Positions 3,632 through 17,768 of a stretch of DNA of 64,000 nucleotides are shown here, one piece after another; the stretch's first letter is position 1; each line of letters begins with the position of its first letter. Both the position numbers and the translations under genes were made by a program. This DNA is from Pseudomonadota bacterium (GTDB lineage Bacteria; Pseudomonadota; Alphaproteobacteria; Micavibrionales; UBA2020). The notes below the pieces were generated by a model, which worked only from the letters and a program-made list of their open reading frames with translations, was not told the origin of the DNA and did no database searches. The stretch lies in contig JAJZVA010000006.1 in assembly GCA_021845905.1 (NCBI GenBank), positions 74,264-138,263 of the forward strand, given 5' to 3'.

Positions 3632-3692
3632 ACCAGCCTCTCAACTCATCCTTAACGATTATACATTCGTGTATAACCCCGCAATATAAGTG

Positions 3693-3764
3693 TGGTAGCG
3701 CTGACCGGAATCGACCGAGGCTCCGCCGCTGAATTTTAATTGGCTCCGCTGCTGAATTTTAATT
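3693..3764 (-). repeat. decayed copy of the tRNA-Leu 3' end plus two tandem 23-nt att-like repeats
   Basis: tggtagcgctgaccggaatcgaccg resembles tggtggccctgaccggaatcgaaccg at 3806; ggctccgc(c/t)gctgaattttaatt occurs at 3719-3741 and 3742-3764. Confidence 0.5.
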
Positions 3765-3805
3765 CGAGGTTCGATCCGGTGAGAGTATTGCTCTCAAAAT
3801 TCGGA

Positions 3806-3860
3806 TGGTGGCCCTGACCGGAATCGAACCGGTACGCCCGAAGGCTCACGATTTTAAGTC
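3806..3860 (-). tRNA. displaced 3' part of the resident tRNA-Leu(UAA) (anticodon loop to CCA)
   Basis: Minus strand reads GACTTAAAATCGTG-AGCCTTCGGGCGT-ACCGGTTCGATTCCGGT-CAGGGCC-A-CCA; TCGTG and CAGGGCC are complementary to CACGA and GGCCCTG of the 5' part at 51164-51204. Confidence 0.85.
3850..3860. repeat. att core copy 1 (gattttaagtc)
   Basis: Identical 11-mer at 3850-3860, 8341-8351 and 51164-51174; equals anticodon loop CTTAAAA plus flanking bases. Confidence 0.85.
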
Positions 3861-3918
3861 CTCTCATGATAGTCCTTACACATTGAATTTATTATACAAT
3901 TCACCATCAAAAAGTCAA

Positions 3919-3939
3919 CCGTGTAAGAACCCGTGTAAG
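3919..3939 (+). repeat. arm-type repeat CCGTGTAAG x2 (small element, distal end)
   Basis: ccgtgtaag at 3919-3927 and 3931-3939; third copy at 8235-8243 upstream of the integrase. Confidence 0.6.
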
Positions 3940-3992
3940 TTTTGAGAAGATTTTGAGGCGAGAATCCATCCTTTTTGCTCCCATAAAATGGC

Positions 3993-4030
3993 TTTGCGCC
4001 GCAACTGTAGAGTTGCGGCGCAAATTTTTT
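3993..4030 (+). terminator. rho-independent terminator-like hairpin
   Basis: 14-bp perfect stem tttgcgccgcaact/agttgcggcgcaaa, loop gtag, followed by TTTTTT (4025-4030). Confidence 0.55.
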
Positions 4031-4243
4031 AGCCTCTGGCTTATGAACACCTGTAAACCAGCCGCGTTCCGGCGATTTCTGCGGTGCTGTAGTCGGCCTC
4101 AAGGTCGCGGGCGATAAGGTCATAGTCCAGATAATAGCGGAGGGACTCCGGTATGAGCGCAACCTGAAAAAGCGGGATGCCCGCGACGGTAGCGGTTCGC
4201 GCTACCTGCTGGGGTCGCTGTATTTGCTGCTGGACGACAAGCC

Positions 4244-4684
4244 TTGTTGAACCAGTATATCCGCCAGTATGCGGAATTGCAGGTCAGGCAGGAAGAGGAA
4301 GCCCGCAAAATCGAAGCCAACAGGCAGTTCTATTCCATCATCATGAATATGAGCTACGCCCTCAACGGCGTTCCGCTCTGGCCTGTCACCGTCATGTCGC
4401 CACCGCCGGAAAAACGCCTTGACGAAAAGGCGTTCACAGCGACATTGCGCCAGAGAAGCAACAGCGAATTGCTTTCCACCGTCACGCGGCGATACGTCAG
4501 GCCGAAAATCGACCCGCCGATGGCGACGGTCAACCTGCGCACAAGCGTCCTTGAGGTCAAAGAAATCCTCCGCCGTGCGGGGTTACAGCCCGATGGAGGG
4601 AAATCCACCTTCGACCCGAAACAGAAAATCAAGGTAACGACGCCACCACCCAAGGCGTCTGCACGGTTCAACGCGAGGAGATAG
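4244..4684 (+). CDS. hypothetical protein, paralog of 36777..37130
   Basis: Shared block FTATLRQRSNSELL...ATVNLRTSVLEVKEILRR vs FTEAAYESRLQKKSNVELL...ATVALRQDVLQVKEPLRR; start uncertain (TTG 4244 or ATG 4343). Confidence 0.55.
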   Translation: MLNQYIRQYAELQVRQEEEARKIEANRQFYSIIMNMSYALNGVPLWPVTVMSPPPEKRLDEKAFTATLRQRSNSELLSTVTRRYVRPKIDPPMATVNLRTSVLEVKEILRRAGLQPDGGKSTFDPKQKIKVTTPPPKASARFNARR

Positions 4685-4687
4685 CGC

Positions 4688-5020
4688 ATGGCATGGACAC
4701 AATCAGGCGAATTCGTGGAATCCGACGTTGTGGAATGGACGGAAGCCATATGGCCTCCCAACCGTTCCCGCCGCCGGAAGAAATCCCGCCCGTGGGGAAA
4801 ACAAAAGGTCACGGCGCAAATTACAGCCATAGACGGCGATTTTGTGAAACTCACCGTCTTGCGCTCCGCTATCGTCGAAAACACTATCGGCTCGGCATTA
4901 AAACTCCACAAGGTCGGCACAACCATTACCAAGAAACGCCAAACCCTCCTGCGCGGCGAACCGGAAAGGCTCTTGTGGTCGGAAGAGGATGTACGAAAGG
5001 TACTTCTCCATCCCCAATAA
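4688..5020 (+). CDS. hypothetical protein, paralog of 41041..41520
   Basis: GAGGAG RBS; shares VVEWTE/VIRWTE, ...TITKKRQTLLRGEPERLLWSEEDVR vs TTITRGGAERLLWSDESAR with the large-element protein. Confidence 0.6.
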   Translation: MAWTQSGEFVESDVVEWTEAIWPPNRSRRRKKSRPWGKQKVTAQITAIDGDFVKLTVLRSAIVENTIGSALKLHKVGTTITKKRQTLLRGEPERLLWSEEDVRKVLLHPQ

Positions 5021-5123
5021 TAAGACAAGCATATGATAAATATAATGTTTTCTGCTATATTGCATGAATTTTAGTCTAAAAAATTGACATTTCTATATGG
5101 GTAAGCTATGATTAAGTTAAAGG

Positions 5124-5711
5124 ATGGAAACAATGGCAAGCGTCAACGAACTCAAAAAATATCTTCACTCCGGCAGGGTCTACCGCCGCGCTGATTTGGC
5201 GCGGTGGTCGAAGTCGGTTGACCGCCATTTGCAAGCACTGGTCAGGGACGGCACAGTTAAAAAGCTTTCCGGCGGCATCTACTACTGCCCAGAAAAATCG
5301 CGCTTCGGCGATTTACCCCCGCACGATGCCGACCTTATCCGCGCTTTTTTGAAGGACGACCATTTTTACATGGCCTCTCTCAACGCCTATAATTCCTTAG
5401 GCGTTGGCGCAACTCAGCTTTACAATGAAACGCTGGTTTATAACAACAAGCGGGATGGACGTATGCGCTTGAACGGGCGTCCCTACTACTTCATAAAACG
5501 ACGCTTTCCCAAAAAAGGAAGTCGGGAATTTTTAATGGTTGACCTTGTGAACAACTTGCATCTGATGGCGGAGGACACGGAAGAAGTCCTCAAACATGCC
5601 GCAAGAAACGCGCTTGAAATGGACAGGGATAAACTGATGCACGCCGTTCATGAATACGGCGGCGCACGAGCAAGAAAATTCTATGAAGGCGTATTCAGCC
5701 ATGCCAGCTAA
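5124..5711 (+). CDS. AbiEi-family antitoxin-like protein
   Basis: Immediately upstream of and overlapping an AbiEii-type nucleotidyltransferase; N-terminal wHTH-like region; family assignment from memory. Confidence 0.65.
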   Translation: METMASVNELKKYLHSGRVYRRADLARWSKSVDRHLQALVRDGTVKKLSGGIYYCPEKSRFGDLPPHDADLIRAFLKDDHFYMASLNAYNSLGVGATQLYNETLVYNNKRDGRMRLNGRPYYFIKRRFPKKGSREFLMVDLVNNLHLMAEDTEEVLKHAARNALEMDRDKLMHAVHEYGGARARKFYEGVFSHAS

Positions 5712-6660
5712 AATATATCTTCACCAGCATCCGGAATTTTCCGACCTTATCCGCGTCGTCGCGGGCGAGAAGAATATAGACCCTTACCTTGCCGAAAAAG
5801 ACTATTGGCTCATGCACTGTCTTTACGGACTGAAAAAGGCCGGATACGATTTTCAGCTTAAAGGCGGTACGTCGTTATCCAAGGGATACGGCATTATCCA
5901 CCGCTTTTCCGAAGACATCGACATTCAAATCACTCCGCTGGAAAGCTTGAATGTCAGAACGTCCAGAAACCACGACAAGGACAAAGACCGCCAAGGCCGC
6001 AAGGATTATTACGATTATCTTGCGGCGCATATTCGCATCGACGGCATTGTGAAAGTCGTGCGGGATACTGATTTTGACTCCCTGCCAAAATACTATAGCG
6101 GTGGAATCCGCCTTCACTATGAAGCAAAATTTTCTTCGGACGGTAGTGTGAAGGAAGGTATTTTACTGGAAGTCGGTTTCGATGCCATGACGCCGAACCA
6201 ACCGCTTAACATCGGATCATGGGCTTTGCGGCGAGCATTGGAGGCAAAGCTGGATGTGACGGACAACACGGCCTTGCAAATTCCCTGCTACGACCCTGCC
6301 TATACGCTGGTCGAAAAATTGCAGGCCGTCGTCACCAAACACCGCAACCTGCAAGAAAAGGGCGGTGCGTTCCCAACCAATTTTATGCGGCATTATTACG
6401 ATATTTACTGCCTGTTGCAGAATGACCATGTGCAAAGCTTCATTGGTTCGCCGGAATACCTCGCGCACAAGAAACGCCGTTTTCCGGCGGCTGACCAGCA
6501 AGCGCCGTTAAGCGAAAACGAAGCATTCTTATTGCATGATGAAGGCAAGAAGGCGCTTTACAAGAAAGAGTATGAGCGTCGCGCTTCGCTCTACTATCAA
6601 GGCCAACCGCCGTTTGAGGAAGTATTGACGGTTATCCAAAAGAATTTAAGGCGATTGTAA
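5701..6660 (+). CDS. AbiEii/AbiGii-family nucleotidyltransferase toxin
   Basis: LKGGTSLSKGYGIIHRFSEDIDIQI nucleotidyltransferase motif; 11-nt overlap with upstream gene. Confidence 0.8.
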   Translation: MPAKIYLHQHPEFSDLIRVVAGEKNIDPYLAEKDYWLMHCLYGLKKAGYDFQLKGGTSLSKGYGIIHRFSEDIDIQITPLESLNVRTSRNHDKDKDRQGRKDYYDYLAAHIRIDGIVKVVRDTDFDSLPKYYSGGIRLHYEAKFSSDGSVKEGILLEVGFDAMTPNQPLNIGSWALRRALEAKLDVTDNTALQIPCYDPAYTLVEKLQAVVTKHRNLQEKGGAFPTNFMRHYYDIYCLLQNDHVQSFIGSPEYLAHKKRRFPAADQQAPLSENEAFLLHDEGKKALYKKEYERRASLYYQGQPPFEEVLTVIQKNLRRL

Positions 6661-6662
6661 TT

Positions 6663-6979
6663 TGGTGCAGGCGGGGGGACTTGAACCCCCACGGGATTGC
6701 TCCCCACGGATTTTCATACCACTTCGGCTTTCGCCGCCACCGTCCGGTGTTCGTGGTCTGGACTATACCTTCGCCATACGGTTTGGATTTCGGCGTTCGC
6801 CTCATCTTCCGCTTAGACGCTGCCCGTCTAGTCTCTACACCTTCCCCTGTTCAGGGGCTTGGCTCGGGATTGCCATGTGAAAGGTTTCCCCGAGTTTGGG
6901 CAGTTCTGCTCCTCGGGTTTCCCACGGGGGCACTCAATTTCGTTCAAGTCCGTTGCGTATACCGTTCCGCCACGCCTGC
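6663..6979 (-). tRNA. tRNA-Leu(UAA) interrupted by a group I intron (exons 6979-6946 and 6714-6663)
   Basis: 5' exon GCAGGCG-TG-GCGGAACGGTATACGC-A-ACGGA-CTT; 3' exon AAAA-TCCGT-GGGGAGCAATCCCGT-GGGGGTTCAAGTCCCCC-CGCCTGC-A-CCA; all stems complementary; spliced length 86 nt. Confidence 0.85.
6715..6945 (-). ncRNA. group I intron (231 nt, no ORF) between U34 and A35
   Basis: Core blocks GGGGAAACC, GGCAATCCCGAGCCAAGCC, GGAAGGTGTAGAGACTAGACGGGCAGC, AAGGTATAGTCCAG, terminal G before AAAATCCGT; resembles cyanobacterial/plastid tRNA-Leu intron (from memory). Confidence 0.8.
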
Positions 6980-7004
6980 TTAATGAACTGGAATTGATTA
7001 TACT

Positions 7005-8207
7005 CTACAAATCTTCATCTTCAAGAAGCGGTTTTTTGGCCTTTTTGCCCTTTTTCTTGCGCCGCGTATTGATGGCGGCGGCATCAAGGCTGGTTTTGAT
7101 GTGCGAGGCGTAGTAATTTTCAATCATTTCCACGCTCGTCCGGCAGTTTTTGGCGATTTGATAAATATCCGCCCCTTCCATGAGGCGTAGGCAGATATAG
7201 GTATGGCGCAGACTGTAGGCCGTGCGCCTGCTCCCTTCCCTGTCGAATTTGAAATCCAACTCATTCAGGATGCGGTTGAACATTTCCCGATGTCCTTTGG
7301 GGAAAAGCCTGTCGGTCGGCTTGGGCTTTGCGTTCATTCTCAGCCTGTCCCTCAGGCGTTTGAAAGGAATGACCGCGCCTGCGGTGCTTTTACAATAACC
7401 GACACCACGCTTGCCGCGTACTTCGATTTCAAGGATTGTCTCGCCCGAGTCCTCGTCCTCGACAATGGTTACGTCCCGAAACTCAAGCCGTGAGGCTTCA
7501 TCGGGACGCAGGCCAGTATTGGCCATGAACAGCACATAGTCGTGCAACTGTGCTGACTCCCAAACCCAGCGTTTGCGCTTGGGTTTTTCCGCGCGTTCGC
7601 GCGTCGCCTGATAAAGGGTTTTATATTCCTCTGGTGAAAACCATGCGCGATGCGAGAGTTTTCCAGTTGTTTTATACGGTTCTGAAAGGTCAGGCAGGTG
7701 TTTCAACCAATCATGGCGCAAGGCTGTTTTCAGCACTTGCCGCAAGGTGACGATTTCTTGGTGCATCGTATTCCGCGCAGGCGGCTTGCCGTTGCGCTCC
7801 ATGCCTGTTTTACGTCGATGGATGCGGTATTCCTGCAAGCGTCCTGCGGTGATTTGAGAAAGCCCCATATCTCCGAAGAAAGGCAACAGGTGGACGGCCA
7901 GACGTTGTTCGTGTCCCTTCACGTATACCTTGTTCCGGTTACCCTCGGTGATAATGGGATATTCTTTCAGGAATTGCTCGGCGGCCTCGTTGAAAGTCTT
8001 CTCCTCGACAAGCTCGCCGCGCTTGTGCTTGCCCCGCAGTTCCAGATACCAGTCCTCGGCAAAGTCCTTGGCTTTGCCAAGGCTCTCCTCATGGGTCGTA
8101 ATGCGGAAGTTTTTCTCATTAAGGAAAGCGGAACACTGCCAATAGCGGCTGTCGTCGCGCTTGTAAACGTGGATACGTCCGTCAAAAATCGTGTGGCTCT
8201 CGGTCAT
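7005..8207 (-). CDS. tyrosine recombinase/integrase
   Basis: FMANTGLRPDEA (Arg box), AYSLRHTYICLRL (HxxR), NCRTSVEMIENYY (Tyr); stop is 25 nt from the tRNA 5' end. Confidence 0.9.
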   Translation of the reverse strand: MTESHTIFDGRIHVYKRDDSRYWQCSAFLNEKNFRITTHEESLGKAKDFAEDWYLELRGKHKRGELVEEKTFNEAAEQFLKEYPIITEGNRNKVYVKGHEQRLAVHLLPFFGDMGLSQITAGRLQEYRIHRRKTGMERNGKPPARNTMHQEIVTLRQVLKTALRHDWLKHLPDLSEPYKTTGKLSHRAWFSPEEYKTLYQATRERAEKPKRKRWVWESAQLHDYVLFMANTGLRPDEASRLEFRDVTIVEDEDSGETILEIEVRGKRGVGYCKSTAGAVIPFKRLRDRLRMNAKPKPTDRLFPKGHREMFNRILNELDFKFDREGSRRTAYSLRHTYICLRLMEGADIYQIAKNCRTSVEMIENYYASHIKTSLDAAAINTRRKKKGKKAKKPLLEDEDL

Positions 8208-8234
8208 AGCACCTCCGGTAATAAAGTTTCAAAA

Positions 8235-8243
8235 CCGTGTAAG
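8235..8243 (+). repeat. arm-type repeat CCGTGTAAG (small element, integrase end)
   Basis: Same 9-mer and orientation as 3919 and 3931. Confidence 0.55.
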
Positions 8244-8340
8244 TACTGTGAAAGTGAAAATTCGTGGTTTATGTCATCTTCAATTATACTAACTAATTGA
8301 AAATAAAGTCTTAATTTCCGCTAAGACCTTATAATATCAC

Positions 8341-8402
8341 GATTTTAAGTCCTGTATATGATTTTATAAGCTATTGATTTTATTGACTATTATAGGATTT
8401 TA
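8341..8402. repeat. att core copy 2 followed by a GATTTTA ladder
   Basis: gattttaagtc at 8341-8351; GATTTTA recurs at 8341, 8360, 8376, 8396; 8392-8407 ataggattttaccgtg resembles junction ataggattttaagtcgtg at 51161. Confidence 0.6.
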
Positions 8403-8403
8403 C

Positions 8404-8430
8404 CGTGCTAATGTGTTAGCCAATGTGCTA
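8404..8430 (+). repeat. arm-type repeats (C/T)GTGCTA (large element, distal end)
   Basis: cgtgcta 8404-8410, tgtgtta 8412-8418, tgtgcta 8424-8430; matching tgtgcta at 51093 and 51104. Confidence 0.55.
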
Positions 8431-8740
8431 ATTGCTATGTTTCCGCTCTCCCAAGGAGCTTGCCCAACGGGTGAAAAAGCACCGGATGCGGCGTCCGCGA
8501 TGTGTAAGAGTAAGCTACTGTAATAGCTACATAATTCTAATAATCGGAGAGCGCCGTGTTAGCCCTGTGCTGATTTTTGCGCTAGCAATCCAAAAACTGC
8601 GGCTAGGTACCTATCGAATGGGGTTACTGACGCCGGTCCGCCTGGCCCATGGGGAGCATCATTCCGCTAGTCGCCACTTGCCCCACCCCCGCCGATCTTC
8701 TGCGCGGCACCGTTGACACGCTAAGGATATCTATTTTGCA

Positions 8741-8787
8741 TTTTGATGCACAAAACTAGGCAATATCCCTTGTTTTGATGCATAAAC
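8741..8787. promoter_or_regulatory. two operator-like palindromes sharing TTTTGATGCA
   Basis: TTTTGATGCACAAAA (8741-8755) and GTTTTGATGCATAAAC (8772-8787). Confidence 0.3.
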
Positions 8788-8794
8788 TGTTGCG

Positions 8795-8878
8795 GACGGC
8801 CAAGCCAAGCAGAACCTGCGCGTCAGCGTCACGCGAGGCAAGCGTCTTACAACCATTTTGAGGCCGTCGTCACGGTAG
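8795..8878 (+). pseudogene. orphan 3' fragment of a UvrD-like helicase gene (inverted duplicate of the gajB-like 3' end)
   Basis: 8800-8861 is a perfect reverse complement of 14137-14198; translates DGQAKQNLRVSVTRGKRLTTIL vs DDQAKQNLRVSVTRGKRLTTIL in ORF 14093..15910. Confidence 0.8.
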
Positions 8879-8893
8879 TTGAACACGCCTCCG

Positions 8894-10135
8894 TCACGCA
8901 ATCAGGGACGCGGCTGCCTCGGCTTGTTCGGTCAGGTAGTGACGGAGTTCGGCGAGCAATGCGCGTTCCGTGGGACTTACACCTGCGAGTAGATCGTCAG
9001 CCTCTTCGATCGCCTTAGGAAGGGTCAGCCAGGGCACGGTCCCGTCCCCAACCATGAGACGGCGGGCAATGGCGATCTCGTAATCACGGCGGGCGGCATG
9101 GGGCATGACATACGCCGCCTCGACGAATACGAGACGCTGGCCGAGCGCCCGCAGGCGCCCATCGCCGAGCCGGCCGATCAGCGGCGGGCGGTGGTGCCAT
9201 TCCAGATCGTGAAACCGGTCAAGCAGCGCCTGATCGTCATTGCCGGTGAAGCCGTCATAAATCTGCTCCTCGACATGGGGCGACGGCTCTTTTTCTTCGC
9301 GCGTCCGGCCAAAGGCGGCGATAAGGCGCGCGGCCAGATTATCATCGGACAGCGCGGCGAAATCGTCCGGGTCCTGCGAGAGGTCGAAGACCAGCATTTC
9401 AGAGCCGTTGTCCGGGTTCATGCCGATGCCGGTGACGAACCACGAGTATCCCTTGCCGTAGAAAAAATCTGTGAGCACGAAGACGTCCTCGTCGAGCGCG
9501 AAATCCGCGACCGCCGCCTTCTGGGCAAAGCGCACGAAATTCGACCAGTGCTCCGGCACGCGCTCGGCGATCAGGCGACACATATGGATGGTCGCCTCCA
9601 CATCGCCCATCGCATCGTGCGCGGCGCTGTGATCGAAGCCGTTGGCAGGCGCGAGCCGGTCGAGCTTGAAGACGGGCCTGCCGCGATCATCGAGCGGGAT
9701 GCTCAGGGTGTTTGGCGCGAACCGTGCGACTGCCTGAATCATCCGCAGGCTGTCGGTGCGGCAATTTCCGTTCGTATTGGTCAGGTAGGGTGCGTGCAGG
9801 GTCTTATACAGCGCCTGGCGCAACAGGTGCTCGTCAAAGCCGAGCGAGTTATGCCCGATGAATATCGCGGGCGACCATTCGGCCATCTTCGCCCTGATCG
9901 CGCGCACCATCCGGTAGTGGCTCGGCAGCGCGGGATCGGTAAGCCGGCCGATGCCGATTCCCGTGACGCGCACCGCGCCAGGCGACGGCACGACGTAAGG
10001 TAAAAGGCGGGAGCGGATTTCAAAGCGGTCCAGCTCGTTCAGGTCGTGATCCGTCCTGATTGCGCCGAACTGGAGTATCTGGTCGAAGGCGGTGTTGGTG
10101 CCGGTCGTCTCGGTATCATAAAACACGAAACTCAT
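8894..10135 (-). CDS. exodeoxyribonuclease I (SbcB)-like DEDDh exonuclease
   Basis: FYDTETTG, GHNSLGFDEHLL, HDAMGDVEAT DEDDh motifs; colinear with E. coli ExoI as recalled, somewhat shorter. Confidence 0.8.
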   Translation of the reverse strand: MSFVFYDTETTGTNTAFDQILQFGAIRTDHDLNELDRFEIRSRLLPYVVPSPGAVRVTGIGIGRLTDPALPSHYRMVRAIRAKMAEWSPAIFIGHNSLGFDEHLLRQALYKTLHAPYLTNTNGNCRTDSLRMIQAVARFAPNTLSIPLDDRGRPVFKLDRLAPANGFDHSAAHDAMGDVEATIHMCRLIAERVPEHWSNFVRFAQKAAVADFALDEDVFVLTDFFYGKGYSWFVTGIGMNPDNGSEMLVFDLSQDPDDFAALSDDNLAARLIAAFGRTREEKEPSPHVEEQIYDGFTGNDDQALLDRFHDLEWHHRPPLIGRLGDGRLRALGQRLVFVEAAYVMPHAARRDYEIAIARRLMVGDGTVPWLTLPKAIEEADDLLAGVSPTERALLAELRHYLTEQAEAAASLIA

Positions 10136-10158
10136 CGCTGGCCCTCCGCCGGCTGGAA

Positions 10159-10686
10159 TTAGGCAAACAGATTTCCGAGCCTGAAGCGCATCGCCGCCGT
10201 GCTGACCTTGTATTCCTTGGCGAGCGCGCTGACGGCGCCCTCGTCGTCAATGTCGAATGACTGCCCCTGCAATGAACGCGCAAGAAATTCTTCGGGCATC
10301 AGAAGTTCGGCGGCGAAGAAATTGGCCTCGATCTCCATTTCATCGATTCCGGCCGAAGACACCGAGTCGCGCATCAGCATCGGGAAGCCCTTATCGACGT
10401 GGATTTGCTTTGTGATCTCGGCGCGGTGAAGCACGAGATGCCCGACTTCGTGGGCGAGCGTAAATCTTTGTCGGTTGGGATGATGAAGGGCGTTGACGCC
10501 GATTATCGGCGTGCCGTCCTTGACATAGACCATGCCCGAGAGTTCGTCGTCGAGCGGGGAAAACCGCAACTGCGCCTCAAGCCCCTTGGCGATACGCTCG
10601 ACCGGAACCGGGGCCGCCATGATGCCCTGCTCGTCCCGTAATTCCTTTACGCGCTTCTGGATCGCGCTGCGCCGTTTCGTATTCAT
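10159..10686 (-). CDS. ImmA/IrrE-family zinc metallopeptidase (CapP-like)
   Basis: HEVGHLVLH motif; 4-nt overlap with upstream XRE gene. Confidence 0.8.
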   Translation of the reverse strand: MNTKRRSAIQKRVKELRDEQGIMAAPVPVERIAKGLEAQLRFSPLDDELSGMVYVKDGTPIIGVNALHHPNRQRFTLAHEVGHLVLHRAEITKQIHVDKGFPMLMRDSVSSAGIDEMEIEANFFAAELLMPEEFLARSLQGQSFDIDDEGAVSALAKEYKVSTAAMRFRLGNLFA

Positions 10687-11060
10687 GCGTTCTCCCTCCC
10701 GTTGTTGGCGCCCTGCTGCATGGCATCGCCCATCAGGCTCAGGACCTCGCGGCGCTGTTTTTCGGTCAGCCCGTCTTCGGCAAGCGGCAGCGGTGACGAG
10801 GCGCCTGCCTTCGGTGCGCGCGCCTGCGGCGCGAGCAGGAGCTGCGCCGGCGAATCGAGTTGCAGAGCCGACGCCAGCGCAAACAGGTGGTGGACAAGCA
10901 CCTGCTGCCGCCCCGCCTCAATATTGGCGAGCGAGGCGCGGGATATGCCGATCTGCTTTGCGAGCTGGTCCTGGGTCTGGCGCAGACTTTTGCGCAAGTC
11001 CCTGATTCGCGCTCCTAAACTTTGATAGATGTGGCCGGCTTCCATAGGTTTTTCTACCAT
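10683..11060 (-). CDS. XRE-family HTH regulator (CapH-like)
   Basis: LRQTQDQLAKQIGISRASLANIEAGRQ HTH; divergent from the Ubl operon. Confidence 0.8.
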   Translation of the reverse strand: MVEKPMEAGHIYQSLGARIRDLRKSLRQTQDQLAKQIGISRASLANIEAGRQQVLVHHLFALASALQLDSPAQLLLAPQARAPKAGASSPLPLAEDGLTEKQRREVLSLMGDAMQQGANNGRENA

Positions 11061-11092
11061 GCAAACGGAAGCGGCGTCAAGATCGCAAACAT

Positions 11093-11159
11093 AGACGTTT
11101 GCATTATAAACTTATTAAACGATTGCATTTTTGACATTTCCGGCGCGCTGTGGCATAAA
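11093..11159 (+). promoter_or_regulatory. promoter of the Ubl operon with adjacent direct-repeat operators
   Basis: TTGACA 11131-11136, 17-nt spacer, CATAAA 11154-11159; ACG(T/A)TTGCATT at 11095-11105 and 11119-11129. Confidence 0.5.
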
Positions 11160-11219
11160 GGAAGGGTCTGCGGGGCCGTCGGCGCCGCGCTTTCTGAAGT
11201 ACGGTGTAAGGAGATTCCG

Positions 11220-11519
11220 ATGGCGCACGAGCATCAACACGAGCATCAACACGAGCATGGACATGGTGGGCATGGCGGGGACGAAGTCACGCTTGAGGTT
11301 GGCACGCCCAAGGGGCTGTTCACTGGCACCTTCCCGAAAACAGCCAAGATTGAGGACGTGATCGCGGCGGCTGTCGAAGCCAAGGGCATCGACAGCGGCG
11401 AATCGCTAGAGCTTGTCTATAACGGCGATGTGCTGCAGCCGGTGCAGCGCACGCTCGTCAGTTTCGGCCTCGCCGGTACAGTGAAGCTCGAACTGGTTGC
11501 GACCGGCTCCGGGGTGTGA
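11220..11519 (+). CDS. bilA: ubiquitin-like beta-grasp protein with His-rich N-terminal tail
   Basis: AAGGAG RBS; MAHEHQHEHQHEHGHGGHGG then ~80-aa Ubl-sized domain ending LELVATGSGV; first gene of Ubl-E2-JAB-E1 operon. Confidence 0.7.
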   Translation: MAHEHQHEHQHEHGHGGHGGDEVTLEVGTPKGLFTGTFPKTAKIEDVIAAAVEAKGIDSGESLELVYNGDVLQPVQRTLVSFGLAGTVKLELVATGSGV

Positions 11520-11522
11520 GCG

Positions 11523-11966
11523 ATGGCCACCGCAGGCGAGCTGGTTTTCGAAGAGCAATTCGGTCACCTGCGGGAGAACGCGCAATCCCGCGGGTGGCCG
11601 CTGGAGCGGGCCTTCATCCTCGGCATGAAAGCCCGCGATGATTCGCAATACTGGCTGCTCGCCGATTGCAGCGACTACCCGGCCCTGCCGCCGGCATGGC
11701 ACTGGTACAACCCAGCGACGAGGCTGCTCGACCAGCCGGCCGATACGCCGAAGGGAGGGACGTTCTTTCACCCCTCCGGCCGAATTTGCGCGCCTTGGAA
11801 CCGTCTTGCCTATACCAAGGTCGATCCCAAGGGGCCTCATGGCGAGTGGGATCTCGCGAACTGGATCACGAATCCCAAGACCGGCAACTGCACCACGCTG
11901 TCGGCGATGGCGCTGCGAATTCATGTCGAGATGAAAAGCGCTCACTACCAGGGCCGGATGGGGTGA
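11523..11966 (+). CDS. bilB: E2-like (UBC-fold) conjugating enzyme
   Basis: FFHPSGRICAPWN resembles the HPN...C active-site loop of E2 enzymes; operon context. Confidence 0.7.
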   Translation: MATAGELVFEEQFGHLRENAQSRGWPLERAFILGMKARDDSQYWLLADCSDYPALPPAWHWYNPATRLLDQPADTPKGGTFFHPSGRICAPWNRLAYTKVDPKGPHGEWDLANWITNPKTGNCTTLSAMALRIHVEMKSAHYQGRMG

Positions 11967-11970
11967 GACG

Positions 11971-12492
11971 ATGCTGAATGCCCTCAAACGCCTGTTTGCA
12001 AAGAAGCCGCGCTACAAGCCGGGGCCGCCGCCCCCGCCGCGGCTCGTGATATCGCAAGGCTGCATCGATGCGCTTGCCGCGTGCCTTGCCCCGGAGATTC
12101 GCGACGGACAGGAAGGGATCGCCTACCTGCTCGGGCAAAGCGACGGTACGACCACGGTGGCGCTCGCCTCGATCCGCCCCGAGGCGCAGGTCACGCGCAG
12201 CAGCTTTGTCGTGAGCGCGTCGGCGATGGCGAAGGTCGTGCGCGCCGCCGTCGATCGCGGCCTGCAGGTGGTCGGACAGATTCACACCCATCCCGGCGAT
12301 GCCTATCACAGCGGCGGCGATGATGACGGCGCGCGGATTGCCTTCACCGGTTATGTATCGATCGTACTGCCCGATTACGGGCGTCACCTCCCCGCGCTGA
12401 CGCGCTCCGCCACCTATGTCTTTCAGGCGGGCAAGGGATTCGTGCCGCTCGGCGCCTCGAACATCGTTATCGTTCCGGGGAGGGTCGCGTGA
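11971..12492 (+). CDS. bilC: JAB/MPN+ metallopeptidase
   Basis: JAMM motif QIHTHPGDAYHSGGD with upstream Glu (EGIAYLLG). Confidence 0.8.
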   Translation: MLNALKRLFAKKPRYKPGPPPPPRLVISQGCIDALAACLAPEIRDGQEGIAYLLGQSDGTTTVALASIRPEAQVTRSSFVVSASAMAKVVRAAVDRGLQVVGQIHTHPGDAYHSGGDDDGARIAFTGYVSIVLPDYGRHLPALTRSATYVFQAGKGFVPLGASNIVIVPGRVA

Positions 12493-13820
12493 AGGATGAG
12501 GATTATTATGACGTGCGCGATGACCGGTTGTTTCGCTATCCCGACGCGCGGCGGCTTGACCAGTCGCGCTGGATTGCGATCCGCGCAGCTCCCGATTACC
12601 TGCGCAGCTATGCCGGCCAGGTCGCCCTGCTGACAGCGGCCAACCTGCTCGGCCGCATGGCGCGGCGGGTTGCGCTCGACATCCTGCCGACGGACATGGT
12701 CCAGCCCCTGCCCTGGGCGGGCGAAGACATCGTCGGCTTTGCTCTCGCGCAGATGCAGGCCGCCGATCCGCGCGGCGAATATCTGATCCGCCCCGCGCAT
12801 GATTCCGATCACATCGTGTTTCTTGGCGCGTCCGGCGCCCCGGTCGTGACGCATGGCGCCGGCTGGCTCGCCTATACCGGCCCTGCCCCGTCACCGCTTC
12901 CCGCCGACGACGCGGCGAACCCCATCGGCGCGGCGCTCGCGGTCATTGCCATGGCGGCGCAGCTTGCTGCACACGGTTTCGACGGGCCGCCGGCTGCGGT
13001 CATGCTCAACAGCTTTGACTGGACTCACGAGTTCGGCGCGCCATTGCCGGCGCTGCCCCTTGGCGCCGATCTCGGCGCGCTATGGGCGGTCGGCGCCGGT
13101 TCCGTCGGCACGGCGATCCTTTATTTCCTGACGCTGGCGACGCGCAATTTTTCCGCGCTGCTGTTCGATCGCGACAAGGTGAAACGCGAGAACATCACGC
13201 GCTCGCCGGTATTCGCCGATGAAGATATCAAAAGCGATAAGGCGCAAGTGCTGGAAGCCTATCTGAGACGCTGCGGGATAACGGACATGGCGCACGAGCC
13301 GGTGATGCTGCATGAATCGCGCAAATGGACCGACCGCGCGAGCGGAACGCCGGACCTCGTGATCGCGGCAGCCAACGAGCACAATGTCCGCCACCTGATA
13401 GAGTCCCTGTTGCCGCCGGTGCAGATTTACGGCACCACAGGCCGCAACTGGCAAGCTTCGGTCATCCGGCATGTGCCGATGGTCGATCCGTGCTCATGCT
13501 GCCTGTTCCCGGAAACCTCCTATACGCCGACCGGCTGCGCAACCGATCCCGAGGCAGCGCCTGCCGACGGTCAGCAGGTCGATGCCGCGCTGCCGCACCT
13601 TTCATTCGCCGCGGGCCTGATGGCCGCCGCGGAAATCCTCAAGCTGAGCCTGCCGGGCTACACAATGACGCCGAACCGCTCCCTGCTCTATACGAAGCCG
13701 GAGCTGCGGCTGGCGCGGGCCGGCGTGAAGCTGCGGCAGGGTTGCGTGTGCGGCGCGCGTAGCCGCGCCGTCCATGAGAAGATGATCGCGGGCAGCCGGT
13801 ACGCAGCGCTGTCGGGTTAG
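12489..13820 (+). CDS. bilD: E1-like ThiF/MoeB-family adenylating enzyme
   Basis: Rossmann GAGSVGTAILYFL...FDRDKV; Cys clusters DPCSCCLFPE and GCVCG; GTGA start/stop overlap with JAB gene. Confidence 0.75.
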   Translation: MKDEDYYDVRDDRLFRYPDARRLDQSRWIAIRAAPDYLRSYAGQVALLTAANLLGRMARRVALDILPTDMVQPLPWAGEDIVGFALAQMQAADPRGEYLIRPAHDSDHIVFLGASGAPVVTHGAGWLAYTGPAPSPLPADDAANPIGAALAVIAMAAQLAAHGFDGPPAAVMLNSFDWTHEFGAPLPALPLGADLGALWAVGAGSVGTAILYFLTLATRNFSALLFDRDKVKRENITRSPVFADEDIKSDKAQVLEAYLRRCGITDMAHEPVMLHESRKWTDRASGTPDLVIAAANEHNVRHLIESLLPPVQIYGTTGRNWQASVIRHVPMVDPCSCCLFPETSYTPTGCATDPEAAPADGQQVDAALPHLSFAAGLMAAAEILKLSLPGYTMTPNRSLLYTKPELRLARAGVKLRQGCVCGARSRAVHEKMIAGSRYAALSG

Positions 13821-13857
13821 CGGTCCGATAGGCTGGCATTGGCGCTAGGCCCCGATT

Positions 13858-13894
13858 CCTTGCAATTCCGGCGGCTAGCGCCGGAATTGCAAGG
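13858..13894. other. perfect 16-bp hairpin (5-nt loop)
   Basis: ccttgcaattccggcg-gctag-cgccggaattgcaagg; no flanking T-run on either strand. Confidence 0.7.
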
Positions 13895-13999
13895 ATGATA
13901 CCGCGCCAGAAAACTGAAGTAGTTCTTGCCCGCCTTGGCCAGTTTCCGACCGTGGCGCTGCTCGGGCCGCGGCAGGAGGGCAAAACCACGCTCGCCGAA
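13895..13999 (+). pseudogene. truncated 5' end of an AAA ATPase gene (DUF4143-associated type)
   Basis: MIPRQKTEVVLARLGQFPTVALLGPRQEGKTTLAE matches the usual N-terminus and Walker A of this family (memory); similarity ends after ~35 codons. Confidence 0.6.
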
Positions 14000-14092
14000 G
14001 GGCGAAGGAGTCGAGGTTATCGGTCTCAAGGAAATGGCGTCGCTTGTCGCGGGCTCCTAGAGCGGCCCATGGCGTCAGCGATGAAGTCGGTT

Positions 14093-15910
14093 TCAATTGT
14101 TTCCAGGAAGAAGGACGCAAGGGTCATTCTTCGGCGTCAAAATGGTTGTAAGACGCTTGCCTCGCGTGACGCTGACGCGCAGGTTCTGCTTGGCTTGGTC
14201 GTCTGCATGATCCCGTGAATTGAAGCGCACAATGCGGTCCGCGTTGTAGGGTGGCTGGCCCTTCCGTTTGATCGGCCAGCCCTCGAAAATAATAACTTCG
14301 TCGAATTGCTTACCTTTCGCTTTGTGCATGTTCATCACGATAACGCCGGACTCCGGCTTGACGTTTGTCGAAAAGTGCTCCCGGACGAAAGCCTGTCGCG
14401 TGATCGCCAGCGCATTGGAATAGCCGCCGTTGTCACGCCAATCCCGGGAAAGCTCCTGACGAAGTTGGGTCCCGCGCTCCAGGATACGGACGTTGCGAAC
14501 CTCATTCGCAATCTCATTCAATCTTTTGCAAGCTCCGTCCTGGAGGATGTGCCGCATGGCCAGCCAGTCGTTATCGGGGTCGCCCACAAGCACGAGCGCA
14601 CGTGTCTGGTCGTACACGGCGAGCATGCTGACGATGATGCTGTTCTTCCGCACGGCTTTGCCTGACGCATGACAAGTCAAAAGCTCTTCGTAGGCTTTTC
14701 GGATGCCCGCCGCCTCTTTCAGTGCTCCTTGCGTGGGTTCATCGCCGCCTTTGCCATGGAAGTAGTTGCACATGAGTTCGATGAACTGTTCAAAGTGATG
14801 GCGATCCACGGCAGGCTGCAACAGATGTGCGATAACTTCCGCCCCAAGGATTGCCGCCTCCATTTCGATGACCGCGGAATGCGGCACCTCAATCATCCCT
14901 GCCGGAGGTTGACGCAAGGCATCTGACACCAGGCGCGTCATCTTCTTTGTCGGGACGAGAATGGCCAGGGACCAGTCGGTGACGCCTTGGCTGACCAAGC
15001 GCCCGCGCGCGGCATAGGTCGTCGTAACTAGCTTTGTCATCGCTGGATCGGGAAAGGGGTCAAAGACATCGAACGCGATGCCCTTATACGTGTTCTGACG
15101 GAATTTCCCCGTAAGCAGGTCGTTGCCGAACATGCCGATCTCTGTCCCGGCGCTTCGGTGATTGTCTGTGCTCAGGTCTATCTCTGTTGGGGTGAACGTC
15201 TCTCGGAAATGGTGGAGACGCGCCGGGTCGGCACCAATCCAGTCATAAATGCGCTGTTCCGGGTCGGCGAGAGCAATCAGCCGGCAGAACGCGCCCAGCG
15301 CCTGAACGACCCGCCATTGCTGCGCATTCGTGTCCTGAAACTCGTCGAGGATGATGATCGGGTACATGGTCCCAATCAATCTGCGAATGCGATCGCTGCC
15401 GTGAAGGATTTCGCCGACATGGGGGGCATAGAGATCGAAGCACACAAGCCCCTCCGCGTTTGCGAGGCGGATGCGCTCTGTCTGCTCAGCGGCCTTCTTG
15501 GCCACCTTCTGCTCGTCGGAGAGGTTTCTGGCCGGGAAACCGGATCGCACCGCGGAGAGGGCGATCGCCTCGCCGGACGGCGTGAGGATACTGAGCCGCC
15601 GCGGCAGCCCGATGAGATAACCATGAGCCTTGAGGATACGCCAAAAGAAGGAATGGTAGGTCTCGACATCGATGAGCTGCTTCTGGGCACGCGGGATTTT
15701 CTGCTCATATTCGATAGCTTCTACCACACGCGAGACGGTGGCGCGTGCGAAGCTCAGAAACAGTATCTTCTGGCCGGGCCGAAGTTGATGCTCTGCCAAG
15801 TGGGCCGCCTTAAGAATGGAAACGGTTGTCTTTCCGGAACCCGGCCCTCCCGTGACAAGAAGGTGGCCATCGGCGTCCATCGCCTCAAGCTGCTTTTCAG
15901 TCAATTTCAT
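14093..15910 (-). CDS. gajB: UvrD/PcrA-like superfamily 1 helicase (GajB-like)
   Basis: LVTGGPGSGKTT Walker A, IILDEFQDT motif II; 14-nt overlap with upstream OLD-family gene. Confidence 0.8.
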   Translation of the reverse strand: MKLTEKQLEAMDADGHLLVTGGPGSGKTTVSILKAAHLAEHQLRPGQKILFLSFARATVSRVVEAIEYEQKIPRAQKQLIDVETYHSFFWRILKAHGYLIGLPRRLSILTPSGEAIALSAVRSGFPARNLSDEQKVAKKAAEQTERIRLANAEGLVCFDLYAPHVGEILHGSDRIRRLIGTMYPIIILDEFQDTNAQQWRVVQALGAFCRLIALADPEQRIYDWIGADPARLHHFRETFTPTEIDLSTDNHRSAGTEIGMFGNDLLTGKFRQNTYKGIAFDVFDPFPDPAMTKLVTTTYAARGRLVSQGVTDWSLAILVPTKKMTRLVSDALRQPPAGMIEVPHSAVIEMEAAILGAEVIAHLLQPAVDRHHFEQFIELMCNYFHGKGGDEPTQGALKEAAGIRKAYEELLTCHASGKAVRKNSIIVSMLAVYDQTRALVLVGDPDNDWLAMRHILQDGACKRLNEIANEVRNVRILERGTQLRQELSRDWRDNGGYSNALAITRQAFVREHFSTNVKPESGVIVMNMHKAKGKQFDEVIIFEGWPIKRKGQPPYNADRIVRFNSRDHADDQAKQNLRVSVTRGKRLTTILTPKNDPCVLLPGNN

Positions 15911-17768
15911 TTACACCGGCTCCCGGATCAGCGCCCGCAGCGACGGGTTCGACCGCCGCATTGATGGCGGCTGGGGCGGGTGTGCAGGCATCTTTCAACT
16001 GGACACACGCATTCCGAAGCCATTCGGGAATCTCGGACTCACTACATTGAGCCAGAAAGTCAGCGATAGCCCAATTTCCTTTGGCCCCTGCAAAATACTC
16101 CGAAAGCGCAACCGTGGCCTGCGCTCCAGGATCAGGGTACTTGGCCTTGAGGTGCGGAGGCCACGTGATGAGGTTCACGAACCGTTTTAGAGCCGCCTCG
16201 GTGGTGCCTTTCAGCACCATGGCCTCGAATCCTTTTTCCTCGTGCATCAACGACAACTCGACGTGGGCTTCAATCAGGGCCTTGTTCCCGTCCTCCTGCT
16301 TGTCGCAAATCGCAAAGGTGCGTTTTCCGAGGGCGCTATAAAACTGCGCCATGCCGGGGATGTTACTTTCGCTGCCGGCATCGACCGTGCAGATACCGAG
16401 TGCTTCAAGGGAGGAATAAACCTCCGGCTTTATCTCTGAAAGGCGACGGCATACCACCGGAAAGGCCGACGCCTCCGTAGCTCCTTCAGCAATGAGGATA
16501 CGGCGGGCGAGCAAACCTTCGCAGAAGCGGGTGCGGAATTCCTGCCGGTAGCGCTTGAGCTTCACGTTGTCGGGCAGCGCTATGATCTTGCGGGCGAGCA
16601 TCCCTTCTGTGTCACGCCCCAGAACGACGGTCTCCTCAAGGGCGAACTCCTCAAGCACGTATGGCGAATGCGACGTGAAGAGGGTTTGCGATGCCAGCTT
16701 CCGAACCTCGTGAACGATGCGCTTTTGGGCATAGGGCGGGATGGCCGTCTCCGGCTCTTCCATGGCAAAGATGACATTCTGCTTGTCTTCAGCGATTTGT
16801 GAGAGCATCGCCAGGACCAGCATGTTGATGGTGCCCGTCCCTTGTCGATAGAAGGGTGCGGCGTGATCGCCGTCTCCTGTGGCGATGAACGCCGTGATCA
16901 CCTTCCGCAAGTGCTCACGCGTTAAATTGGACACCTTAAGATGGGGCTTTACGCCCCATTCCTTTGGCACGTACTTCTTGAGCGCGACGCTGATGCTATC
17001 AAGTATCGGGGAAATACCAAGTTTCGGATCACTCGCAACCGAGATTCCAGACAGCGTTCCAAGTGTGTCCTCCCACATCTGCGGCCTGACTTCTTTGAGC
17101 CGCAGAATGATATCAAGCAGGCTGCCACGCTCTAAACTCAATGCGCGGGTGCCTGTCCGGAGGGAGCGGAGGTAAAGGAAGCCACATACCTGCTTGTGCC
17201 TCTTTGAGAACAGCTCTGGCGTGTCACCTTCCGTGAGACTGCGGGTAAAGAAGGTCCTGCCCTCGAAATCGTCCTCTTCCTCTTCGTACCAACCGTGGAA
17301 TGTGACGCGCAGCGCTTCGGTGATGGCGGCGCCGTCGACTCCCGCCGGGTTTGGTTCGTTGTAGAACTGGTCTGTCGCCGCGTCCCAAAACTCCGTGTAG
17401 TCGCCAAACTTTCCCTTCTGCTCGTCGGTAAGGTCCGCAACTGTCACCTCAATCTCGATTCTGGGAGCATCGGCCGCTACCTTGGTATCGTTGGCGGCGG
17501 GTTCGCCGTTATCATCAGCAGCGGGTTCAGCCGCTCCATCAGCCGGGGCCGCAACGGGCTTGACGGTATAATCACCTCTGAAAAAATCGTGCTCGTCGAT
17601 GGGTGGTTGGCGGTTGAGACGATCAGGCCCGAGCACCAGATCGAGTGCTTCGAGAATGGTCGTTTTGCCGGTGTTGTTATCGCCGATCAGTACCCCGTGC
17701 TTTGGTAACAACAGTGTTGTTGCCTTCACACCCCTGAAATTCTTGATGATGAGGCGACACGCTCTCAC
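15897..17768 (-). CDS. gajA: OLD-family ABC ATPase + TOPRIM nuclease (GajA-like)
   Basis: IIKNFRGVK...LIGDNNTGKTTILEAL N-terminus; C-terminal ILIAEGATEASAF TOPRIM-like; paired with UvrD helicase. Confidence 0.8.
   Translation of the reverse strand: MRACRLIIKNFRGVKATTLLLPKHGVLIGDNNTGKTTILEALDLVLGPDRLNRQPPIDEHDFFRGDYTVKPVAAPADGAAEPAADDNGEPAANDTKVAADAPRIEIEVTVADLTDEQKGKFGDYTEFWDAATDQFYNEPNPAGVDGAAITEALRVTFHGWYEEEEDDFEGRTFFTRSLTEGDTPELFSKRHKQVCGFLYLRSLRTGTRALSLERGSLLDIILRLKEVRPQMWEDTLGTLSGISVASDPKLGISPILDSISVALKKYVPKEWGVKPHLKVSNLTREHLRKVITAFIATGDGDHAAPFYRQGTGTINMLVLAMLSQIAEDKQNVIFAMEEPETAIPPYAQKRIVHEVRKLASQTLFTSHSPYVLEEFALEETVVLGRDTEGMLARKIIALPDNVKLKRYRQEFRTRFCEGLLARRILIAEGATEASAFPVVCRRLSEIKPEVYSSLEALGICTVDAGSESNIPGMAQFYSALGKRTFAICDKQEDGNKALIEAHVELSLMHEEKGFEAMVLKGTTEAALKRFVNLITWPPHLKAKYPDPGAQATVALSEYFAGAKGNWAIADFLAQCSESEIPEWLRNACVQLKDACTPAPAAINAAVEPVAAGADPGAGVNEID

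What the first reader, a model, noticed from the sequence alone, without database searches (positions are those of the whole stretch)
8795..8878. 62-bp perfect inverted duplicate of the gajB-like 3' end brackets a 5.3-kb defence segment
Positions 8800-8861 are the exact reverse complement of 14137-14198, which are the last codons of the UvrD-like gene. The similarity extends a few more bases on each side. The orphan copy still reads DGQAKQNLRVSVTRGKRLTTIL in frame.

The inverted pair encloses the ExoI/ImmA/XRE genes, the Ubl operon and a truncated AAA gene start. It is either a scar of cassette exchange by recombination within helicase genes, or a substrate for inversion. Inversion would give the helicase an alternative C-terminus (RPSSR versus TPKNDPCVLLPGNN).
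Basis: seen in the sequence. Interest (0 to 1): 0.6.

Follow-up and report, generated by a model that had tools for sequence, protein, structure and literature searches.

The report
Orphan inverted scrap of Gabija helicase
A 76-base piece of a defence helicase gene (gajB) has been copied in reverse 5.3 kb away, next to a neighbouring defence cassette; it is real but looks like a one-off rearrangement scar, not a switch or a cassette-exchange site.

Summary
The repeat is real. Arms 8791-8866 and 14132-14207 are 76 nt and 96% complementary, with 62 nt perfect and none expected by chance.

The right arm lies inside an intact gajB (codons 568-593 of 605). The gene continues for 12 more codons, through a tail (TPKNDPCVLL) that is near-invariant, with occasional substitutions, in 120 homologues. 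The left arm is a non-coding internal fragment with no gajB-like sequence on either side. It sits 27 nt past the stop of an SbcB-like exonuclease.

The arms do not mark cassette ends. Homology to four related Bil-like cassettes runs from 8894 to 14060.

No support for inversion or exchange was found:
- Three assemblies cross the left arm and two cross both arms, always in one orientation.
- No RPSSR-tailed GajB was called anywhere.
- 82 related Gabija loci have no orphan and no Bil neighbour.
- The flanking integrase belongs to a different element.

Best reading is a neutral scar of illegitimate recombination or repair, in a block that also carries two microhomology deletions. Rare RecA-driven inversion is possible but would remove the conserved GajB tail.

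A more interesting aside: the host tRNA-Leu(UAA) is split in its anticodon loop by two tandem elements. Each element carries its own intron-containing tRNA-Leu(UAA).

The parts
8791..8866 (+). Orphan inverted copy of gajB codons 568-593. The perfect core is 8800-8861. There are 3 mismatches (8794, 8799, 8862), all in the outer 14 nt. It has no start codon and no gajB-like sequence on either side.
14132..14207 (-). Parent segment inside intact gajB. It encodes (H)ADDQAKQNLRVSVTRGKRLTTILTP. The gene continues natively on both sides.
14093..15910 (-). gajB (605 aa, UvrD-like). The PADLOC GajB match has E = 4.6e-235 over residues 1-601.
15897..17768 (-). gajA (623 aa; OLD-type ATPase/TOPRIM). The PADLOC GajA match has E = 2.6e-262.
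8894..10135 (-). SbcB/ExoI-like exonuclease (413 aa). Its C-terminus is intact, but it carries a unique in-frame 165-nt internal deletion compared with 468-aa homologues.
10159..11060 (-). capP (10159-10686, M78 peptidase) and capH (10683-11060, XRE HTH) regulator pair.
11220..13820 (+). Bil-like operon:
- 99-aa gene in the BilA position, with only a weak ubiquitin hit
- 147-aa gene in the BilB position, with no hit
- BilC, JAB domain (11971-12492)
- BilD, E1/ThiF domain (12489-13820)
13895..14060 (+). AAA_14/DUF4143 ATPase pseudogene. The first 35 codons are joined to the last ~20 codons in another frame. About 1 kb was deleted at the microhomology ACGCTnnCCGA. A perfect hairpin lies just upstream at 13857-13893.
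8867..8893 (.). 27-nt spacer between the orphan and the exonuclease stop codon. This is the left junction zone.
8354..8790 (.). Non-coding terminal segment of the 42.8-kb element E2, at its end distal to the integrase. It contains two perfect TTTTGATGCA copies at 8741 and 8773.
8337..8353 (.). 17-nt att core TCACGATTTTAAGTCCT (tRNA-Leu anticodon-loop sequence). It marks the E2/E1 boundary and repeats perfectly at 3846-3862. int1 (7005-8207) lies on the E1 side.

Best explanation
The left arm is a neutral, non-coding scar. It is a 62-76 nt stretch of the resident gajB gene that was copied in inverted orientation into the junction between the end of the mobile element and the 3' side of the Bil-like cassette.

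The most likely origin is a single illegitimate event. One candidate is a replication or repair template switch to the opposite strand 5.3 kb away. The other is end-joining repair of a break that captured a short gajB fragment.

It does nothing by design. The only consequence is that 62 perfect inverted bases now allow rare RecA-dependent inversion of 8862-14136. That inversion would damage GajB.

Shown: the anatomy, the identity of the source, the uniqueness of the orphan, and the single orientation. Inferred: the mechanism that created it.
For: The source is the resident gajB.
- The core is 62/62 identical.
- The same stretch in the two gajB relatives examined at the DNA level (about 81-82% aa identity, among the closest found) is only 74-77% identical at the DNA level.

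The right arm is not a junction.
- gajB is full length against the GajB model.
- The tail after the arm is near-invariant, with occasional substitutions, in 120 homologues.

The left arm is an internal fragment with foreign sequence on both sides.
- There is no further gajA or gajB similarity in 8208-8900.
- There is no ORF.

The orphan sits in a junction zone.
- Similarity to related cassettes stops at the exonuclease stop codon, 27 nt away.
- On the other side lies unrelated element-end DNA.

The same block carries two other microhomology-type deletions, in the exonuclease and in AAA_14. Sloppy rearrangement has therefore happened here repeatedly.

The three mismatches all lie in the outer 14 nt. 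That fits a 62-nt copy flanked by short chance homologies (GACG, GCCG). If three substitutions fell at random in a 76-nt copy, this clustering would have about 0.5% probability (my calculation).

The orphan is not a recurrent feature. There are 0 orphans in 82 related Gabija loci covering 836 kb of flank.

Capture of DNA fragments at breaks by bacterial NHEJ has been demonstrated (PMC6379672).
Against: - No sister sequence lacking the orphan was found, so the empty site and the order of events are inferred.
- The base next to the perfect core is a mismatch on both sides. This is awkward for simple microhomology priming.
- Whether this organism has Ku/LigD is unknown.
- A neutral scar and a rarely used recombination substrate cannot be told apart without reads.
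Confidence: 0.65

Rival explanations
1. The orphan is the product of a staggered-break inversion followed by re-inversion. In the first step, the cassette plus the gajB tail was inverted by breaks staggered across the 76-nt stretch. This duplicated that stretch in inverted orientation and truncated gajB. In the second step, homologous recombination between the two copies flipped the segment back. That restored gajB and left the orphan behind.
For: - Removing the orphan gives a clean arrangement.
- Inverting 8867-14131 on paper gives exactly the structure the staggered-break model predicts: each copy keeps one native flank (my derivation).
- Inverted duplications of 46 bp to 1.9 kb at inversion breakpoints are well documented (PMC1885836).
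- Selection for a working Gabija would favour the revertant.
Against: - It needs two events where one suffices.
- It predicts a 76-nt copy that is identical at first, so the three edge-only mismatches are unexpected (about 0.5% by chance).
- No inverted intermediate was seen in any assembly.
Confidence: 0.12
2. The pair is a working inversion switch (a partial intergenic inverton). Flipping 8862-14136 exchanges the GajB C-terminus (TPKNDPCVLLPGNN for RPSSR) and reorients the Bil cassette, giving phase-variable defence.
For: - The two arms are inverted repeats, one inside a gene 3' end and one outside it. This is the layout of gene-altering inversions (bioRxiv 10.1101/2023.03.11.532203).
- A tyrosine recombinase gene lies 580 nt from the left arm.
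- 62 perfect bases exceed the minimum for RecA recombination (established knowledge).
Against: - The recombinase belongs to the adjacent element E1. Its att core is the tRNA-Leu anticodon loop.
- The alternative tail is 5 unrelated residues and replaces a family-conserved motif.
- Only one orientation is seen in all spanning contigs, and only one GajB variant exists in the collection.
- The repeat is absent from 82 related loci.
- No promoter or alternative domain is swapped.
Confidence: 0.08
3. The orphan is the remnant of a second, inverted Gabija copy. That copy once lay left of the cassette and has been almost entirely deleted.
For: - Long inverted gene duplications are unstable and tend to be deleted (established knowledge).
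- The block shows other deletions.
Against: - The fragment lacks the last 12 codons and the stop, so two separate deletions ending inside the gene are needed.
- No other gajA or gajB trace exists in 8208-8900.
- No relative has two Gabija copies.
Confidence: 0.08
4. The orphan works as RNA. Read-through from the capH-capP-exonuclease operon would carry 76 nt antisense to the gajB mRNA. This would couple the expression of the two systems.
For: - The orphan lies 27 nt downstream of the exonuclease stop, on the strand where read-through RNA would be antisense to gajB.
- No terminator-like site lies between them. The first one on that strand is at 8493-8480.
Against: - There is no conservation in any relative.
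- The region has no special RNA structure (z = 0.05).
- There are no expression data.
Confidence: 0.04
5. The repeat is an assembly artefact, a chimeric join at a short repeat.
For: All available copies come from metagenome assemblies that may share one project.
Against: - Three assemblers agree.
- k141 contigs read through the 76-nt arms, which are shorter than a read.
- The Logan contigs break 30 nt into each arm, as expected if both copies exist in the reads.
Confidence: 0.03

Closest known systems
Filler or captured DNA at illegitimate-recombination and NHEJ junctions (for example capture of fragments in Sinorhizobium meliloti breaks, PMC6379672), and templated insertions from replication template switching
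   Same: A short stretch copied from elsewhere in the genome sits exactly between two unrelated sequence blocks. It has no coding role. Its ends show only a few bases of similarity to the source context.
   Different: - The event was not observed here, only its product.
- The copy comes from 5.3 kb away on the opposite strand.
- Whether the host has Ku/LigD is unknown.
Inverted duplications at inversion breakpoints (staggered-break model, Ranz et al. 2007, PMC1885836)
   Same: A short non-repetitive genic sequence is duplicated in inverted orientation at the two ends of a segment. The size (76 nt) is within the reported range (46 bp to 1.9 kb).
   Different: In that model each copy keeps one native flank. 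Here one copy keeps both native flanks and the other keeps none, so a second inversion must be assumed. That model was described in Drosophila, not in bacteria.
Gene-altering programmed inversions: partial intergenic invertons and shufflons (Milman et al. 2023 as cited in, and Chanin et al. 2023, bioRxiv 10.1101/2023.03.11.532203)
   Same: One inverted repeat is inside the 3' part of a gene and the other is outside it. Inversion would change the C-terminus.
   Different: - There is no dedicated invertase.
- There is no homologous alternative domain, only 5 codons.
- The repeat is not conserved.
- Only one orientation has been observed.
attL/attR duplications left by integrases that insert into gene 3' ends
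   Same: A gene's 3' region is duplicated next to an integrase-bearing element.
   Different: - att duplications are direct repeats, and this one is inverted.
- The integrases here use the tRNA-Leu anticodon loop, not gajB.

Membership tests
Programmed invertible segment (inverton / shufflon) | A pair of inverted repeats flanks the segment | tested here: met
   76-nt arms, 96% complementary, 62 nt perfect
Programmed invertible segment (inverton / shufflon) | A dedicated site-specific recombinase acts on the repeats | tested here: not met
   The only nearby recombinase, int1, belongs to element E1. The E1 boundary is the 17-nt tRNA-Leu anticodon-loop core at 8337-8353. Of 85 loci with a relative of int1, 36 have ACTTAAAATC about 145 nt upstream of the integrase gene, and none of the related Gabija loci has an int1 relative or an orphan. 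No serine invertase lies in 8-14 kb.
Programmed invertible segment (inverton / shufflon) | Both orientations are present in populations | tested here: inconclusive
   The NCBI MAG contig and one k141 contig span both arms, and a second k141 contig spans the left arm. All are in one orientation. There is one GajB variant in a 15-billion-protein collection.
Programmed invertible segment (inverton / shufflon) | Inversion yields an alternative functional product | tested here: not met
   The alternative tail RPSSR* replaces TPKNDPCVLL, a motif near-invariant, with occasional substitutions, in 120 homologues
Programmed invertible segment (inverton / shufflon) | The repeats are conserved in related loci | tested here: not met
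   0 of 82 related Gabija loci have any extra gajB piece
att-site duplication by site-specific integration | The duplicated target segment forms direct repeats at the element ends | tested here: not met
   The repeat is inverted. The true att repeats of the local elements are at 3846-3862, 8337-8353 and 51164-51178.
Staggered-break inversion duplication | Each copy keeps one native flank | tested here: not met
   The right copy has both native flanks and the left copy has none. The feature would be met only after a hypothetical second inversion.
Junction filler / templated insertion | A short copy of a nearby sequence lies between two unrelated blocks | tested here: met
   The orphan lies between the element-end DNA (8354-8790) and the cassette. 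Homology between the cassette and its relatives ends at 8894.
Junction filler / templated insertion | Microhomology at the switch points | tested here: inconclusive
   There are 4-nt matches (GACG, GCCG), each separated from the perfect core by one mismatch
Gabija (context of the parent copy) | Adjacent GajA (OLD-type ATPase/TOPRIM) and GajB (UvrD-like helicase) | tested here: met
   PADLOC GajA 2.6e-262 and GajB 4.6e-235. The two genes overlap by 14 nt.
Bil (ubiquitin-like conjugation defence; enclosed cassette) | Four genes: Ubl, E2, JAB and E1 | tested here: inconclusive
   BilC 1.2e-14 and BilD 5.1e-14, with Pfam Prok-JAB and ThiF matches. The two small upstream genes have no BilA/BilB model hit. 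The 99-aa gene gives only a weak ubiquitin match, E = 0.054.

The most novel reading that the evidence does not exclude
The 62-nt perfect inverted pair could be a used, RecA-dependent flip-flop. Inversion of 8862-14136 would remove the conserved GajB tail and so give a reversible OFF state of Gabija, while also turning the Bil cassette around. Alternatively, the orphan in the exonuclease operon's 3' UTR could act as an antisense RNA against gajB mRNA and link the CapH/CapP-controlled cassette to Gabija. Either would be cross-talk between neighbouring defence systems created by an accidental duplication.
Probability: 0.05. Interest if true: 0.6.

Novelty: new member of a known kind. Interest (0 to 1): 0.2.

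Why it matters
The finding itself matters little. It shows that a defence island was assembled by untidy, non-homologous events rather than by clean exchange. The evidence is a captured gene scrap and two microhomology deletions within one 5-kb block. It also cautions that a repeat pair 'bracketing' a cassette need not mark the cassette's ends.

If reads showed the segment flipping, it would be an example of a defence system toggled by an accidental repeat.

The surrounding architecture is more valuable. Integrases insert into the anticodon loop of tRNA-Leu(UAA) and bring a replacement tRNA-Leu(UAA) with a group I intron at the same position.

Tried and rejected
- Exonuclease truncation. I first suspected that the exonuclease was truncated at the orphan, because it is 413 aa against 468 aa in homologues. 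Alignment shows an intact C-terminus and an internal 55-aa deletion instead.
- UvrD_C gene in L009. In relative L009 a UvrD_C gene lies convergent to the exonuclease, which suggested an ancestral Gabija neighbour. It has no similarity to this GajB.
- int1 as the invertase or island integrase. I considered int1 for this role. The att cores and the split host tRNA-Leu show that int1 belongs to the adjacent 4.5-kb element.
- Exact-match scans for the core 32- or 44-mer found nothing in GTDB genomes, JGI metagenomes or IMG/VR. A 36-mer from 8354-8790 was scanned against IMG/VR only and also found nothing.
- A plasmid search matched only a 120-nt piece of the tRNA intron region.
- RNA folding of the exonuclease 3' region showed nothing unusual.
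- No sequence lacking the orphan (an empty site) could be found. All contigs with identical proteins share the arrangement.

Full report
**Observation**

The repeat exists as described. The repeat finder reports inverted arms 8791-8866 and 14132-14207: 76 nt, 96% complementary, 5265 nt apart. It is the only long inverted repeat in the whole window. A 67-nt pattern from the left arm matches the right arm with one mismatch, and none of 100 shuffles produced a match. The perfect core is 8800-8861 = rc 14137-14198. The three mismatches (8794, 8799, 8862) all lie in the outer 14 positions.

**What the two arms are**

The right arm lies inside gajB (14093-15910, minus strand).
- gajB matches the PADLOC GajB model end to end (E = 4.6e-235). 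It is preceded by gajA (E = 2.6e-262).
- The arm covers codons 568-593 of 605.
- After the arm the gene continues with TPKNDPCVLLPGNN. The motif ILTP..DPCVLL is near-invariant in the 120 best homologues, with occasional substitutions.
- The right arm is therefore ordinary, native gajB and not a junction.

The left arm reads ADGQAKQNLRVSVTRGKRLTTILRPSS* in the same frame.
- It has no start codon.
- It has no gajA- or gajB-like sequence on either side.
- It is an internal fragment with two foreign flanks.

In the two gajB relatives examined at the DNA level (about 81-82% amino-acid identity, among the closest found), this same stretch is only 74-77% identical at the DNA level. A 62/62 match therefore means the orphan was copied from the resident gene or from a near-identical allele.

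**What lies between the arms**

- SbcB/ExoI-like exonuclease (8894-10135, minus strand).
- CapP and CapH (10159-11060, minus strand).
- A four-gene Bil-like operon (11220-13820, plus strand). BilC and BilD have model hits. The two small genes in the BilA and BilB positions do not.
- An AAA_14/DUF4143 pseudogene (13895-14060).

Four related cassettes were fetched (L008, L009, L093, L094; exonuclease 73-78% identical).
- For L008 and L009, the two aligned at the DNA level, similarity to the window starts at the exonuclease stop codon (8894).
- In L008 it runs through BilD and the AAA_14 gene to that gene's stop at 14058-14060.
- The cassette block is therefore 8894-14060. The arms do not coincide with its ends.
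- The orphan lies 27 nt outside the left end.
- The right arm lies 72 nt beyond the right end, inside another gene.

The block has decayed in two further places.
- The exonuclease has a unique in-frame 165-nt deletion. All listed homologues with full query coverage are about 467-488 aa (most 468), against 413 aa in the window.
- AAA_14 has lost about 1 kb between two copies of ACGCTnnCCGA, with a frameshift.

**Wider context**

I first took the integrase 580 nt to the left (int1, 7005-8207) for the island's own. It is not.
- A 17-nt sequence, TCACGATTTTAAGTCCT, occurs perfectly at 3846-3862 and at 8337-8353.
- It occurs with 14 of 15 matches at 51164-51178.
- It is the anticodon loop of tRNA-Leu(UAA).
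- Joining the 5' half at about 51171-51204 to the 3' half at 3795-3862 reconstitutes a canonical intron-less tRNA-Leu(UAA).

The host gene has thus been split by two tandem elements.
- E2 (8354-51163) carries int2, a coupling protein, a relaxase, ArdC, AbiE, Hma, Gabija and the Bil cassette.
- E1 (3863-8336) carries int1.

The orphan lies 438-513 nt inside the integrase-distal end of E2. The DNA between it and the boundary (8354-8790) matches nothing I could fetch.

Exchange within helicase genes:
- None of the four cassette relatives sits next to Gabija.
- None of 82 related Gabija loci has a Bil, CapH/CapP or exonuclease neighbour, or any extra piece of its own gajB. These loci cover 836 kb of flank, and 59 of them have more than 1 kb downstream of gajB.

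Inversion:
- The NCBI MAG contig and one k141 contig span both arms, and a second k141 contig spans the left arm. All show the same orientation.
- The two Logan contigs simply break 30 nt into each arm, as a de Bruijn graph must at a repeat.
- The GajB 90% cluster has one member, so no RPSSR-tailed form was ever called.
- Inversion would delete a conserved tail and gain nothing recognisable.

Reads could not be examined, so low-level flipping is not excluded. 62 perfect bases are above the minimal length for RecA recombination (established knowledge).

**Most likely mechanism**

My preferred explanation (confidence about 0.65) is a single illegitimate event that deposited a short inverted copy of gajB at the cassette/element-end junction. 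It was either a template switch to the opposite strand during replication or repair, or capture of a gajB fragment during end joining. Bacterial NHEJ can capture DNA fragments in chromosomal breaks (PMC6379672). The all-peripheral mismatches fit a 62-nt copy bordered by short chance homologies. Three random substitutions in a 76-nt copy would cluster this way about 0.5% of the time.

A two-step alternative is a staggered-break inversion (PMC1885836) followed by homologous re-inversion that restored gajB. It reproduces the structure exactly on paper. It needs two events, and it predicts copies that are initially identical.

The other rivals are less likely still, and are scored separately:
- remnant of a second Gabija copy;
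- antisense 3' UTR;
- programmed inverton;
- assembly artefact.

**Comparison with known systems**

The layout resembles the partial intergenic invertons of gene-altering inversion systems. It fails four of their five defining features. It is best filed as one more example of a rearrangement scar.

**Verdict**

- Interest is low (0.2).
- The tRNA-Leu architecture noticed in passing deserves its own follow-up.

Noticed in passing
window 3795-3862 and ~51171-51204; elements 3863-8336 and 8354-51163: The host's intron-less tRNA-Leu(UAA) gene is split in its anticodon loop. Its two halves lie 47 kb apart, and joined in silico they give a canonical tRNA-Leu(taa). Two tandem integrative elements lie between the halves. 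The att cores are at 3846-3862, 8337-8353 and 51164-51178.
   Followed up: yes
window 6663-6985 (intron 6715-6945) and ~49250-49563 (intron 49299-49523), minus strand: Each element carries, directly after its integrase, its own complete tRNA-Leu(UAA). That gene is interrupted by a 225-231 nt group I intron at CUU/AAAA, exactly inside the sequence used as att core. ARAGORN misses both copies unspliced. Rfam calls only copy 2. One idea is that the intron keeps the replacement tRNA from being a target of the element's own integrase.
   Followed up: partly
loci L010-L089, L175-L179: 85 loci with relatives of int1 (64-92% identity) were surveyed. They come from Alphaproteobacteria, Acidobacteriota, Planctomycetota and others.
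- 44 have an intron-split tRNA-Leu(UAA) right after the integrase.
- 11 have a plain tRNA-Leu(CAA), and 2 have a plain tRNA-Leu(UAA).
- 36 have ACTTAAAATC upstream of the integrase start, in most cases about 145 nt upstream.
- In L175 and L176, core genes lie upstream of the integrase and island genes lie downstream of the tRNA.
   Followed up: partly
window 9323-9337 (deletion junction in 8894-10135): The SbcB-like exonuclease lacks 55 internal residues that are present in the listed homologues with full query coverage. The deletion is in frame and lies at a short direct repeat. The gene may be impaired.
   Followed up: partly
window 13857-14060: The AAA_14/DUF4143 gene is reduced to its first 35 and last ~20 codons by a ~1 kb microhomology deletion with a frameshift. 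A perfect 37-nt hairpin (13857-13893) abuts its start codon. The same hairpin motif occurs twice upstream of the intact gene in L008.
   Followed up: partly
window 8741-8750 and 8773-8782: Two perfect TTTTGATGCA copies lie 32 nt apart, immediately left of the orphan. No other perfect copy occurs in the window, and the match count at up to one mismatch is no higher than in shuffled sequence. Their function is unknown.
   Followed up: no
window 17807-27575: A complete Hma system (HmaC 17807-21103, HmaB 21100-24057, HmaA 24054-27575) lies directly upstream of Gabija. HmaC has an N-terminal Swt1-like HEPN domain. An AbiEi/AbiEii pair (28194-29815) and ArdC (29949-31205) follow.
   Followed up: partly
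window ~3682-3730: A further, degenerate tRNA 3'-end fragment lies about 110 nt from the host tRNA-Leu 3' half. It may be the remnant of an older integration.
   Followed up: no
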